Part shown: positions 37,508-47,058 of the stretch, piece by piece
Layout: the number at the start of each line of letters is the position of its first letter
How positions within the stretch are numbered: position 1 is the first letter of the stretch
Virus record (IMG/VR): IMGVR_UViG_3300019886_000067
Span: 16,398 to 80,397 of that record
Source: a virus
Reading direction: 5' to 3' (one strand)
DNA: 64,000 bases
Position numbers and translations under genes: made by a program
The notes under the pieces: model-generated
The model's database searches: none
The model's input: only the letters and a program-made list of their open reading frames with translations
What the model was told of the DNA's origin: nothing

Positions 37508-38950
37508 ATGAAGACAACTCCCGATCAGTTCATGGCGAGCCTTGGCTTGCCAGAGGTATATCGCGTTGGAGGTTCAGTCCGAGACGAAGTTCTCGGCCGG
37601 CGCTCCAAAGACTCCGACTATATGGTTCGGGGCTCCACGCTTAATGAGATTAGGTCGGCTGTCGGGCGCGCGGGTGCTAAGCCGAGCAAGCTCAAGCTAC
37701 GCACAGGTGTTGAGGTAGGTGTACGGGCCGCAGTCAAGGGGCTCGGCTTGCTTGAGATTGTTCTGCCGCGCACAGAGCGCTCAACTGGACCCGGCCGGCA
37801 CGATTTCGAGATTCATTGTTCGCCTGATATCCGACTTGAGGAAGATGCTCTTCGTCGTGACTTCAAAATGAATGCGATCTACCTCAACATCGCTTCTCAG
37901 CACTATGTTGATCCGCTTGGTGGGCTTGATGATATAAAACGTAAACTCATCAACACCACACATGCTGATTCCTTCAAGGAAGACCCGCTTCGCACGCTTC
38001 GAGCGCTGCGTTTCTGTTCTACGTTGCCAGGATTTTGTCTGTCAGGAACTACACACAACCAAATGTGCGACCATGCGCCGGCCGTAACTGGTCTGACGAC
38101 GAAAGGTGTCTCTGCTACCGCATTTGATGAGCTTTGCAAGCTGCTCATGGGCAGTCGGCCAAGCTTGGCGCTGGAATTGATGGCCGAAACAGGCGTTATG
38201 GCGGTTTTCCTGCCTGAGCTTGTGCCAATGCTTGACTTCGAGCAGCGTTCGCGCTACCACGAGAAGACAACAAGCAAGCACACGTTCGATGCTGTGCAGG
38301 CGGCGGCTAATATGCACCAACACGCGCCGCTTCGCGTACGTTTGGCACTACTTTTCCACGATTCCGGCAAGCCTTTGATGGCTTGGACAGGCGAGGACGG
38401 CCTTCAGCATTACTACGCGCTTGATCCAAAGCGAGCAGTAGAGCTAAATGCACCAATCGCCGCACTTGAATCACACGAGGCATGGGGCGTCAAGCAAGCG
38501 CACGCTGCTCTAACGCGCCTTGGCGCTCCAAAGAAGCTACGCCAAGACGTTGAAACACTGATTGCGCGCCATATGTTGCCGCTGCATGAGAACTTTAGGC
38601 CGATCAAGGTACGCAAGTTGCGTGCAGAGCTTGGCGACGAGCTTTTGCGTGACCTAATCACGCATCGGCTGGCTGATGTGCTCGGCAAGGGCGGTGACAC
38701 AACGGCCGCTGTAGAAGTTCTGACGTGGATTGCCAACGAGCAAGACAGGGCCATCGCCGGCCATGTGCCGCTAAGTCCGAAGGAACTTGATATAAGTGGC
38801 CGTGAACTTGTTGCGCTAGGTTTGAACGGCCGCGAAATCGGACGCGTGCAGAAGCAGCTACTACACGAGGTACTTGCTCAGCCTAAGCTCAACACAAACG
38901 AGTGGCTTGTCAATCGAGCCAAGGTCATACGCCACAAGGATATGAAATGA
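37508..38950 (+). CDS. cca: CCA-adding tRNA nucleotidyltransferase with HD domain
   Basis: YRVGGSVRD..LG..SKDSD, EDALRRDFKMNA, FKEDPLRTLRALRF, LALLFHDSGKP. Confidence 0.93.
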   Translation: MKTTPDQFMASLGLPEVYRVGGSVRDEVLGRRSKDSDYMVRGSTLNEIRSAVGRAGAKPSKLKLRTGVEVGVRAAVKGLGLLEIVLPRTERSTGPGRHDFEIHCSPDIRLEEDALRRDFKMNAIYLNIASQHYVDPLGGLDDIKRKLINTTHADSFKEDPLRTLRALRFCSTLPGFCLSGTTHNQMCDHAPAVTGLTTKGVSATAFDELCKLLMGSRPSLALELMAETGVMAVFLPELVPMLDFEQRSRYHEKTTSKHTFDAVQAAANMHQHAPLRVRLALLFHDSGKPLMAWTGEDGLQHYYALDPKRAVELNAPIAALESHEAWGVKQAHAALTRLGAPKKLRQDVETLIARHMLPLHENFRPIKVRKLRAELGDELLRDLITHRLADVLGKGGDTTAAVEVLTWIANEQDRAIAGHVPLSPKELDISGRELVALGLNGREIGRVQKQLLHEVLAQPKLNTNEWLVNRAKVIRHKDMK

Positions 38951-41929: not shown

Positions 41930-42007
41930 AATGGACAGAATACTTGCGTTTGCGCTACCTTTTTGCCCATACTGCAACTACATCCCGAGCTTCAAGTAAC
42001 CGCTGCT

Positions 42008-42337
42008 ATGCCCCGCGAAAAAGTTCTGACTGTTCGTATTTCTGATTGTGAGATTCAGACGTTCAAAGCCACCGGCAAAGGTGGGCAGAACCGAGACAAA
42101 CGCGATACGGCCGTTCGTATAATCCACCATCAGTCCGGGGCGCGTGGTGAATCACGTGAAGAGCGTGACCAGCTTTCCAACAAGCGCAAAGCCTTTGTCC
42201 GCATGGCGAACTCAAAGGCATTCAAGGACTGGCTTACAAGAGAGCATAGCCGTCGTATAGCCGACGTAGATGCCTGGCTTGATGAGCAGATGAAGCCAGA
42301 GAACCTTGATGTTGAGTATGGCTCGGATACCAACTAG
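42008..42337 (+). CDS. GGQ-domain peptidyl-tRNA hydrolase (release factor-like, no codon-recognition domain)
   Basis: TFKATGKGGQNRDKRDTAVRIIH..SG...REERDQLSNKRKA; 109 aa. Confidence 0.9.
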   Translation: MPREKVLTVRISDCEIQTFKATGKGGQNRDKRDTAVRIIHHQSGARGESREERDQLSNKRKAFVRMANSKAFKDWLTREHSRRIADVDAWLDEQMKPENLDVEYGSDTN

Positions 42338-46307: not shown

Positions 46308-46311
46308 ACAA

Positions 46312-46667
46312 ATGGGGTCCAGCCTGTAGCCGGGGTTCTGTTCCCAGGACGACAAACCCCTGGGCGACCACGATCTTTCTTACCGGGCTGACTAATTCCC
46401 GGCAGCCGTCCTATGACGTGCCGCTCCAAACCTTGATCGCCCCCGCTATGCTTCGGGCGTCTGTTCTTGGATCGCACCCAGCCTTGGCAACTCGCGCGTG
46501 CGCGCGTCTCGCGGTTCAAGCGTCCCGTGCTACTGTCCGCATCGCTCTCGCAACTTGGCCCCAACAAGGACTCCCGCCGGCCGGTGACGACGAGGTTAGC
46601 CCTCGTCGGGGTGCCCCGAACTTCCTCTCGCGTCCTTCAACCGCGAGCCGCAGTCCGGCTGGCCCAC
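46312..46667 (-). ncRNA. rnpB: RNase P RNA
   Basis: GAGGAAGTTCGGGGCACC (46627-46610) and AACAGAACCCCGGCTAC (46342-46326) form P4; P1, P2, P3, P5 and P19 can all be paired; about 355 nt. Confidence 0.88.
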
Positions 46668-46670
46668 TAA

Positions 46671-46732
46671 AACGAAGAGAGGGATTCGAGCCCTCTACTG
46701 CCAACATCGCAGCCACCATACCTTGCTCCGCT
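46671..46732 (-). ncRNA. D-armless tRNA-like element
   Basis: AGCGGAG/CTTCGTT acceptor, GCTGC-GATGTTG-GCAGT arm, AGAGGG-CTCGAAT-CCCTCT T-arm. Confidence 0.55.
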
Positions 46733-46790
46733 CCGAAGGTTTCTGTACTTGGAGTCGTTAGACGATAATCCGTGTTGAAACCTACAAACA

Positions 46791-46870
46791 TGGAGAAGGA
46801 GGGATTCGAACCCTCGTCTTACCGCTGCGCCATTAGCGCGTTACACGGCAATCGACACCAAGCCTTCCCC
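46791..46870 (-). ncRNA. mini-tmRNA: tRNA-like domain only, no mRNA-like domain
   Basis: GGGGAAG/CTTCTCC-A with G3:U70, stemless D-loop ending GGTGTCGA, helix TTGCCG/CGGTAA, GAC linker, T-arm GAGGG-TTCGAAT-CCCTC. Confidence 0.8.
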
Positions 46871-46884
46871 GTCTTCAAACCATA

Positions 46885-47058
46885 TCACGTATAGCGCTCC
46901 GGCGTCTTGGTCGGCCCAAGCAGCCATATCAAGAACTTGTAAAGCAGGTAGAGCCCAATCGCAACACCCAGCACTTCGCCTAGCGCCACGGCCGTTCCTT
47001 CGCCGCCGCCGGACGCGAATCCAACAACTATCAGTAGCAATGCGATAAGAAGTATCAT
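46885..47058 (-). CDS. small two-helix membrane protein
   Basis: MILLIALLLIVVGFASGGGEGTAVALGEVLGVAIGLYLLYKFLIWLLG; TTGACA-N17-TAGGGT-N6-ATG. Confidence 0.65.
   Translation of the reverse strand: MILLIALLLIVVGFASGGGEGTAVALGEVLGVAIGLYLLYKFLIWLLGPTKTPERYT

What the first reader, a model, noticed from the sequence alone, without database searches (positions are those of the whole stretch)
46791..46870. 80-nt mini-tmRNA with the alanyl tRNA-like domain but no mRNA-like domain
Seen: GGGGAAG GCTTGGTGTCGA TTGCCG TGTAACGCGCTAATGGCGCAG CGGTAA GAC GAGGG TTCGAAT CCCTC CTTCTCC A. It has the tmRNA signatures: G3:U70 and A73 alanine identity, a stemless D-loop with GG...UCGA, helix 2, a 3-nt GAC linker and a T-arm. 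Established: SmpB binds this D-loop/linker region; tagless tmRNAs are known from some protist mitochondria. Here about 21 nt replace the pseudoknots and tag ORF. Inference: either (a) a tagless rescue RNA that takes over stalled chains, which the phage GGQ protein or Pth2 then releases without a degradation tag, or (b) an SmpB/EF-Tu decoy that inhibits host trans-translation.
Basis: partly seen in the sequence, partly recalled or inferred. Interest (0 to 1): 0.92.

Follow-up and report, generated by a model that had tools for sequence, protein, structure and literature searches.

The report
Phage mini-tmRNA lacking the tag
This soil phage carries an 80-nt RNA gene that is just the alanine-accepting, tRNA-like end of the bacterial ribosome-rescue RNA tmRNA; the type is known from mycobacteriophage DS6A, but here it proves to be a large, mostly unannotated phage family.

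Summary
Minus strand 46870..46791 is a tmRNA tRNA-like domain (TLD) with about 19 nt where about 310 nt of pseudoknots and tag ORF should be (Rfam tmRNA 44.6 bits, E 5e-16, just under the gathering score of 47; ARAGORN makes no call). It is not an assembly artefact, because a contig from a second soil sample is identical across it. It is not a one-off deletion either. The closest related phage has the same 80-nt form, and a strict pattern found 110 more IMG/VR contigs (83 unique sequences in all) with the same architecture. G3:U70 is invariant, A73 is present in 81/83, the G•A/A•G pairs are kept, and helix 2, the T-stem and the acceptor stem covary strongly. Only about 9 convincing copies occur in 185,579 bacterial and archaeal species genomes. 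My covariance model also finds the published "TLD-only" tmRNA of mycobacteriophage DS6A (63.7 bits), so the kind is already known; a similar molecule inhibited tmRNA in E. coli. No SmpB gene was found in 50 carrier contigs and a GGQ protein in only 2, so the RNA must use host factors. The most likely function is an alanine-charged competitor of host tmRNA for SmpB and stalled ribosomes. Tagless rescue remains a live alternative. This is a new member of a known kind, and the family is much wider than the literature I found records.

The parts
46791..46870 (-). Whole mini-tmRNA gene (TLD-only tmRNA), 80 nt. RNA position n corresponds to window coordinate 46871-n.
   Evidence: Rfam tmRNA 44.6 bits, E 5e-16. 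Family model R1 70.5 bits. Identical in an independent sample.
46864..46870 (-). Acceptor stem 5' strand GGGGAAG, with G3 of the G3:U70 alanine identity pair
   Evidence: G3:U70 is invariant in 83/83 family members and 81/81.
46852..46863 (-). Stemless D region GCUUGGUGUC followed by GA, the 5' half of the tandem G•A/A•G pairs
   Evidence: Matches the tmRNA consensus ..uGGaUUCGA... The G•A pair is kept in 80/83 and the A•G pair in 72/83.
46845..46851 (-). Helix 2 5' strand UUGCCGU
   Evidence: MFE fold. Family covariation is 93-99% paired at positions 1-6, against 41-84% (41-55% at positions 2-6) after shuffling.
46826..46844 (-). Inner segment GUAAC + hairpin GCGCU/AAU/GGCGC + A, which caps helix 2 in place of pseudoknots and tag ORF
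   Evidence: An A-rich stretch plus a small hairpin is present in 77/83 members. The closest relative, L190, has GUAAC plus a different but still paired hairpin.
46819..46825 (-). Helix 2 3' strand GCGGUAA
46816..46818 (-). GAC linker; its G and A form the 3' half of the G•A/A•G pairs
   Evidence: The linker is GAC in 43/83 members and GAN in 71/83.
46799..46815 (-). T-arm GAGGG-UUCGAAU-CCCUC
   Evidence: The two outer T-stem pairs are 100% paired with 4 pair types across the family.
46791..46798 (-). Acceptor 3' strand CUUCUCC (with U70) plus discriminator A73. No CCA is encoded; the next bases are UGU.
   Evidence: A73 is present in 81/83. CC follows the discriminator in only 24/83.
37508..38950 (+). 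Phage CCA-adding enzyme (context: it would supply the CCA end that the gene does not encode)
   Evidence: PF01743 at 2e-18 and PF12627 at 7e-9
41963..42337 (+). Phage GGQ / RF-1-domain protein of 124 aa (context: a possible but not general partner)
   Evidence: PF00472 51.7 bits. phrog_3122 at 8e-33. The GGQ motif is visible and there is no basic ArfB-type tail.
46311..46666 (-). Reduced RNase P RNA-like gene directly downstream (context: a syntenic partner in related phages)
   Evidence: RF00010 19.1 bits, E 0.0017. In relative L191 the RNase P hit is 56.9 bits, E 8.6e-16, and starts 3 nt after its mini-tmRNA.

Best explanation
The element is a real gene for a TLD-only tmRNA of the type first seen in mycobacteriophage DS6A. 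It is probably transcribed with the neighbouring RNase P-like RNA and the tRNA array. RNase P would cut its 5' end, and a CCA-adding enzyme (the phage has its own) would add the 3' CCA. Host AlaRS would then charge it with alanine through G3:U70 and A73. Its D region, tandem G•A pairs and helix 2 form the surface that host SmpB binds on tmRNA. It would therefore compete with host tmRNA for SmpB, EF-Tu and stalled (nonstop) ribosomes. Because it has no resume codon, tag ORF or stop codon, any chain it captures cannot receive the SsrA degradation tag. The net effect is suppression of host trans-translation tagging during infection. Shown here: the structure, the purifying selection on it, its restriction to phages, and the absence of phage SmpB. 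Shown by others for a similar molecule: inhibition of tmRNA. Inferred: charging, SmpB binding, ribosome entry and the benefit to the phage.
For: The tmRNA TLD homology is strong. There is a family of 83 unique sequences from 110 viral contigs plus the window, all with the same architecture. Of all base-pair cells, 95.5% are paired, against 66.7% after shuffling (0/500 shuffles reach it) and 44-58% when partners are slid; the covariation score is 0.737 against 0.157. Helix 2 positions 2-6 are 93-99% paired with 4-6 pair types each. G3:U70 is invariant although the search pattern fixed only the G, and no member has the stronger G:C pair. A73 is present in 81/83. G3:U70 and A73 also hold in members found by the model alone: DS6A, L190, L191 (two copies) and L192. 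The tandem G•A/A•G pairs are kept on the side the pattern did not constrain. The DS6A 'TLD only' tmRNA scores 63.7 bits with the same model and has the same inner hairpin. The literature reports that such a molecule strongly inhibits tmRNA, perhaps by titrating SmpB (PMC4131195; PMC11915505). A TLD of 25 + 34 nt closed by a loop is enough to bind SmpB in the crystal structure 2CZJ (PMC3985003). No SmpB gene was found in 0/50 carrier contigs, including 0/14 that are at least 90% complete, nor in this contig, so the host protein is the only available partner. Only about 9 convincing copies occur in 185,579 species genomes.
Against: I have no expression, charging or SmpB-binding data for this RNA or for any family member. 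According to PMC4131195, the inhibitory effect of the similar molecule did not depend on whether it could be charged. That fits a simple SmpB sponge, yet the family conserves the alanine identity strictly, which points to a role for the charged form that the sponge model does not explain. It is not obvious why blocking rescue would help a phage that needs working ribosomes. The two complete 140-kb relatives lack the RNA, so it is dispensable.
Confidence: 0.55

Rival explanations
1. Productive tagless rescue. Ala-mini-tmRNA with host SmpB and EF-Tu enters nonstop ribosomes and accepts the nascent chain. The peptidyl-RNA is then hydrolysed by an ArfB/GGQ-type factor, or drops off and is cleaved by Pth. 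Ribosomes are recycled without tagging. The selected benefit would be extra rescue capacity, for example when mRNAs are cut during infection.
For: Strict conservation of G3:U70 and A73 argues that the charged, ribosome-competent form matters. This phage also encodes a GGQ protein and a CCA-adding enzyme in the same tRNA island. Tagless tmRNAs persist together with SmpB in some mitochondria (PMC11915505). The steps up to peptidyl-Ala-TLD in the P site involve only the TLD and SmpB (PMC3985003).
Against: GGQ genes occur in only 2 of 50 other carriers and lie 12-46 kb away from the RNA. Host ArfA/ArfB could release the same ribosomes without this RNA. The only experimental report describes inhibition, not rescue. 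The phage GGQ protein lacks the basic ArfB-type tail.
Confidence: 0.27
2. An alanine-type tRNA mimic with a role outside trans-translation. It could be a decoy or sponge for a host defence nuclease or sensor that targets tRNA or tmRNA, or an alanyl donor for a non-ribosomal transferase.
For: About a third of the copies sit in phage tRNA clusters (32 of 111 lie within 500 bp of a tRNA). Relatives carry further G3:U70 tRNA-like RNAs without D-arms next to it (L190 1916-1986, L191 1423-1498).
Against: The features conserved beyond the acceptor stem, namely the stemless D region, the tandem G•A pairs and helix 2, are the tmRNA-specific surface that SmpB binds. A plain acceptor/T minihelix would be enough for AlaRS.
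Confidence: 0.1
3. A decaying remnant of a full-length phage tmRNA, an assembly collapse, or the tmRNA-derived half of an attP site.
For: Full-length tmRNAs exist in other phages. One weak TLD-like element in mycobacteriophage Nibb lies 90 nt from an integrase.
Against: Covariation across 83 sequences shows selection on the short form itself. The closest relative has the same 80-nt form. The sequence is identical in a second sample. Both halves of the TLD are present, not only the 3' end that an attP site would carry. Eleven of 14 complete carrier genomes have no tyrosine integrase. DS6A integrates at tRNA-Lys, and its integrase lies 10 kb from its mini-tmRNA.
Confidence: 0.03
4. An unusual decoding tRNA-Ala in which the inner hairpin serves as an anticodon arm.
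For: It has alanine identity and a T-arm, and it lies beside a 33-tRNA array.
Against: ARAGORN makes no tRNA call. The best Rfam match in the tRNA clan is tmRNA, not tRNA. The inner hairpin loops are 3-8 nt and vary in sequence, the inner segment ranges from 12 to 31 nt, and one relative lacks the hairpin altogether.
Confidence: 0.02

Closest known systems
TLD-only tmRNA of Mycobacterium phage DS6A (tmRNA Website 'Phage__Mycobacterium.9'; Mao et al. 2009 RNA Biol 6:355, as cited in PMC4131195 and PMC11915505)
   Same: Both are 80 nt with the same order of parts: a 7-bp acceptor stem with G3:U70 and A73, a stemless D region, GA, helix 2, an A-rich stretch plus a small hairpin, the linker and the T-arm. 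The same covariance model finds both (DS6A 63.7 bits at JN698994 28478-28557; window 70.5 bits). Both are phage-encoded, and the DS6A gene is not annotated in its GenBank record.
   Different: The window's phage is an unrelated, uncultured soil phage; its capsid protein is under 30% identical to that of any cultured phage. Here the RNA sits in an ncRNA operon with an RNase P-like RNA and 33 tRNAs, whereas in DS6A it stands alone between gp33 and a DNA polymerase III gene. The helix 2 and hairpin sequences are unrelated. No experiment has been done on the window's RNA.
Canonical one-piece bacterial tmRNA (SsrA, Rfam RF00023)
   Same: The tRNA-like domain aligns end to end with the model: acceptor stem, D-region motif, G•A pairs, helix 2a and T-arm. 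It has alanine identity and is presumably matured by RNase P.
   Different: It has no pseudoknots, resume codon, tag ORF or stop codon; 19 nt replace about 310. The score is below the gathering threshold (44.6 against 47). It cannot carry out the mRNA-switching half of trans-translation.
CDS-less organellar tmRNAs (jakobid and oomycete mitochondria, Rfam RF02544; two Mallomonadaceae plastid genes of about 65 bp)
   Same: They are also reduced to the tRNA-like domain with no tag reading frame, and they persist together with SmpB (PMC11915505; PMC3985003).
   Different: The organellar genes are usually circularly permuted (two-piece) and are the only tmRNA in their compartment. The phage RNA is one-piece and acts in a cell that has a complete host tmRNA, so it is a competitor rather than a replacement.
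Engineered TLD fragment used for SmpB co-crystals (T. thermophilus, 5' 25 nt + 3' 34 nt joined by a UUCG loop, PDB 2CZJ)
   Same: The design is the same: the two TLD strands are joined by capping helix 2 with a small loop. That construct binds the SmpB globular domain (PMC3985003).
   Different: The phage RNA is natural. Its helix 2 is longer and carries a conserved A-rich internal loop and hairpin of unknown role.

Membership tests
tmRNA, canonical (Rfam RF00023) | tRNA-like domain: 7-bp acceptor stem, T-arm, stemless D region, helix 2a with G•A pairs | tested here: met
   End-to-end alignment to model positions 1-374; fold and parse
tmRNA, canonical (Rfam RF00023) | Alanine identity: G3:U70 and A73 | tested here: met
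   Read directly from the sequence. Invariant across the family.
tmRNA, canonical (Rfam RF00023) | mRNA-like domain with resume codon, tag ORF and stop codon | tested here: not met
   Only 19 nt lie between the helix 2 strands. ARAGORN finds no tag peptide.
tmRNA, canonical (Rfam RF00023) | Pseudoknots PK1-PK4 | tested here: not met
   There is no sequence available for them.
tmRNA, canonical (Rfam RF00023) | Score at or above the Rfam gathering threshold (47 bits) | tested here: not met
   The window scores 44.6 bits. By contrast, 14 of 20 sampled family members score 51-80 bits.
TLD-only tmRNA (DS6A type) | One-piece gene of about 60-85 nt with both TLD strands joined by a capped helix 2 and no CDS | tested here: met
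   The window and DS6A both match model R1 over its full length (70.5 and 63.7 bits).
TLD-only tmRNA (DS6A type) | Encoded by a phage | tested here: met
   The contig is an IMG/VR virus record with terminase, portal and HK97-type capsid genes.
TLD-only tmRNA (DS6A type) | Inhibits host tmRNA function when expressed | not testable with these tools
   Reported for a similar molecule in E. coli. The primary paper is not in the held library.
TLD-only tmRNA (DS6A type) | Charged by AlaRS and bound by SmpB | not testable with these tools
   Inferred from the conserved identity elements and the tmRNA-specific D region, G•A pairs and helix 2.
Mitochondrial tmRNA (Rfam RF02544) | Match to the mt-tmRNA model; usually a permuted two-piece gene | not tested
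   Rfam clan competition reported only the best family, tmRNA. The gene here is not permuted.
tRNA (Rfam RF00005) | D-arm and an anticodon arm with a 7-nt loop | tested here: not met
   ARAGORN makes no call. The D region is 12 nt without a stem, and the inner hairpin loop is 3 nt.

The most novel reading that the evidence does not exclude
Phages of many lineages run their own tagless form of trans-translation. The alanine-charged mini-tmRNA, working with host SmpB, takes nascent chains off ribosomes stalled on broken mRNAs, for example after cleavage by defence or toxin nucleases, and passes them to a GGQ hydrolase or Pth for release. Ribosomes keep working and phage proteins are not marked for ClpXP or Lon. 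This would be a third mode of ribosome rescue, and it could also explain the unsolved function of tagless organellar tmRNAs.
Probability: 0.25. Interest if true: 0.8.

Novelty: new member of a known kind. Interest (0 to 1): 0.55.

Why it matters
TLD-only tmRNA has so far been treated as a curiosity. The 2025 tmRNA database lists 9 'standard, no CDS' sequences among 97,179, with DS6A as the phage example. ARAGORN misses nearly all of them (108 of 111), and some, including this one, fall below the Rfam threshold. If they block or re-route trans-translation, they are a common phage tool against a near-universal bacterial quality-control system that is also being pursued as an antibiotic target. 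They also offer many natural variants for asking what a tagless tmRNA does on the ribosome. The strict retention of alanine identity is a concrete clue that conflicts with the simple SmpB-sponge model and can be tested.

Tried and rejected
ARAGORN in tRNA and tmRNA mode made no call at the site. On the family it missed 108 of 111 copies, and its two 'tmRNA' calls (L031, L079) are false 324-nt extensions over a mini-tmRNA.

blastn of the 900-bp region against 50,697 phage records found no match. blastn of a consensus-like member found only T-arm-length hits, so BLAST cannot survey this family.

A search for relatives through the neighbouring He_PIG protein found none. Relatives were reached through the capsid protein instead.

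No RNA holder was listed among public sequencing runs, only three soil DNA runs. Expression therefore could not be examined.

The sigma-70 promoter scan found nothing near the gene.

I looked for a hidden tag ORF or a two-piece arrangement. The TLD is contiguous. The ATG that overlaps the 3' end opens a 91-aa frame running through the next two RNA genes, which I judge spurious.

The attP idea was rejected; see the rival explanations.

Clustering of neighbouring genes over 111 loci gave no shared protein partner. The recurrent neighbours were replication and early genes: exonuclease, RusA, DnaB, WhiB and methylase.

I checked Sphingobium phage Lacusarx, whose authors cite Mao 2009 for its tmRNA. 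Its annotated tmRNA is 394 nt, so it is not a mini form.

The primary DS6A paper (PubMed 19617710) is not in the held library. Its content is therefore cited only through later papers.

Full report
**What is there.** It folds into a 7-bp acceptor stem with G3:U70 and discriminator A73. A 12-nt region without a D-stem follows (GCUUGGUGUC, then GA). Next comes a 7-bp helix 2, then a 19-nt inner segment made of GUAAC, a 5-bp hairpin and a single A. After that come the returning strand of helix 2, the linker GAC and a standard T-arm. Rfam's tmRNA model aligns from its first to its last position with 19 nt where the model has 310. The score is 44.6 bits with E 5.2e-16, just below the curated threshold of 47. 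ARAGORN finds 33 tRNAs in the window but nothing here. No CCA is encoded. The phage has its own CCA-adding enzyme at 37508-38950.

**It is not an artefact or a lone deletion.** The window comes from an 80-kb IMG/VR contig from soil, estimated 66% complete. A contig from a different sample and study covers 46689-46994 without a single difference. Relatives found through the capsid protein were scanned with a covariance model. The closest relative (63% capsid identity, locus L190) has an 80-nt copy scoring 70.3 bits. It starts the inner segment with the same GUAAC but carries a different, still paired, hairpin. Another relative (L191) has an even smaller 60-nt version with no inner hairpin. Two complete 140-kb relatives have none. 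No homologue retains a tag region.

**It belongs to a family.** I scanned IMG/VR for the two halves of a tmRNA TLD lying at most 52 nt apart. The scan returned 110 contigs, giving 83 unique sequences of 74-85 nt when the window is included. All share the same order of parts.

- Acceptor pairs 5-7 are 93-98% paired with 4-6 pair types, against 40-67% after shuffling.
- The two outer T-stem pairs are 100% paired with four pair types, against 38% after shuffling.
- Helix 2 positions 1-6 are 93-99% paired, against 41-84% after shuffling (41-55% at positions 2-6).
- On a model-fitted alignment, 95.5% of cells are paired against 66.7% after shuffling (0 of 500 shuffles reach it) and 44-58% when partners are slid. 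The covariation score is 0.737 against 0.157.
- U70, C71 and C72 are invariant, although the pattern fixed only the 5' GGGG. A73 is present in 81/83.
- The tandem G•A/A•G pairs flanking helix 2 are kept in 80/83 and 72/83.
- An A-rich stretch followed by a small hairpin fills the centre in 77/83.

A covariance model built from these sequences (R1) scores members at 58-88 bits and tRNAs at no more than 32 bits.

**Annotation and distribution.** ARAGORN misses 108 of the 111 copies. Rfam's tmRNA model passes its threshold for 14 of 20 sampled members. The same pattern found only 20 sites in one genome from each of 185,579 bacterial and archaeal species, and only 9 of these score like family members, mostly on short MAG contigs. 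This is therefore a phage RNA.

**It is already known in principle.** The literature records one phage case. [quoted passage not shown] The 2025 tmRNA database paper repeats the point and counts 9 'standard, no CDS' sequences among 97,179 (PMC11915505). Model R1 finds the DS6A gene at JN698994 28478-28557 with 63.7 bits. It is unannotated in GenBank and has the same architecture, including the A-rich stretch and hairpin. The window's RNA is therefore a new member of the DS6A kind. What appears to be new is the size and coherence of the family.

**Context.** In this phage lineage the RNA heads an ncRNA block. In L191 an RNase P class A match (56.9 bits, E 8.6e-16) starts 3 nt after the mini-tmRNA and is followed by a tRNA array. 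L190 and the window have the same order; the window's RNase P-like match is 19.1 bits. Across the whole family the context varies. Only 32 of 111 copies lie within 500 bp of a tRNA, and the recurrent neighbours are replication and early genes.

No SmpB gene was found in 50 carrier contigs, 14 of them at least 90% complete, nor in this contig. An RF-1/GGQ gene is present here (41963-42337; it has the GGQ motif but no basic ArfB-type tail). Only 2 of the 50 other contigs have one, and there it lies 12 and 46 kb from the RNA. Tyrosine integrases occur in 7 of 50 contigs and in 3 of the 14 complete ones.

**How it most likely works.** The conserved parts are those that tmRNA uses to be cut by RNase P, charged by AlaRS and held by SmpB. 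A TLD of similar design is enough to bind SmpB in a crystal structure (PMC3985003). With no phage SmpB, the RNA must use the host protein and so compete with host tmRNA. Without a resume codon or stop codon it cannot tag a chain or terminate translation. My best reading (0.55) is an alanine-charged competitor that suppresses host tagging, in line with the published inhibition.

The main doubt concerns charging. The inhibition reported for the similar molecule did not require it, yet nature keeps G3:U70 and A73 without exception. That suggests the charged RNA does something on the ribosome. The chief rival (0.27) is therefore productive tagless rescue, with release by ArfB-type factors or Pth. 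Roles outside trans-translation (0.10) and remnant, attP or odd-tRNA readings (0.05 together) fit the data poorly.

**Verdict.** The function is narrowed but not settled. The element is a new member of a known kind, inside a family much larger than the literature I could search records. This scan's notes list the same stretch once more from another window (e1-6100139), but not on other DNA.

Noticed in passing
window 46311-46666 (-); L191 1563-1832; L190 about 1590-1850: A reduced RNase P class A-like RNA lies directly downstream of the mini-tmRNA. It is weak in the window (19.1 bits, E 0.0017). In relative L191 it is clear: 56.9 bits, E 8.6e-16, only 270 nt, starting 3 nt after that phage's mini-tmRNA and followed by a tRNA array. 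None of these reaches Rfam's gathering score of 100. A phage-encoded RNase P RNA would be notable in its own right.
   Followed up: partly
window 46672-46783 (-): The 112-nt spacer between the mini-tmRNA and the RNase P-like RNA contains a second T-arm-like hairpin (GAGGG-CUCGAAU-CCCUC at 46700-46676). A possible 6-bp acceptor-like stem there has no G3:U70. Relative L190 has no such spacer element.
   Followed up: no
L191 1423-1498 and 1501-1560; L190 1916-1986: Related phages carry extra alanine-identity (G3:U70, A73) tRNA-like RNAs without D-arms next to the mini-tmRNA. L191 has a 76-nt one in tandem upstream. In L190 a 71-nt one lies after the RNase P-like RNA, and Rfam calls it a tRNA at 52 bits.
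   Followed up: partly
L031 6093-6154 (-) (IMGVR_UViG_3300025873_000023): A Pistol self-cleaving ribozyme (RF02679, 51.9 bits, gathering score 34.5) sits about 105 nt upstream of that phage's mini-tmRNA on the same strand. It may help process the transcript.
   Followed up: no
L202 1464-1533 (Mycobacterium phage Nibb NC_051624, 32696-32765): A 70-nt TLD-like element with G3:U70 and A73 (R1 36 bits) lies unannotated 90 nt upstream of the tyrosine integrase. It may be a tmRNA-derived attP region or a divergent mini-tmRNA.
   Followed up: no
window 41963-42337 (+): The phage GGQ protein (RF-1 domain, 124 aa) has the GGQ motif but ends in an acidic stretch rather than the basic tail that ArfB uses to probe the mRNA channel. 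How it would recognise its substrate is therefore unclear.
   Followed up: partly
window 46885-47058 (-): A 57-aa hydrophobic ORF ends 15 nt upstream of the mini-tmRNA on the same strand. It has no Pfam or PHROG match.
   Followed up: partly
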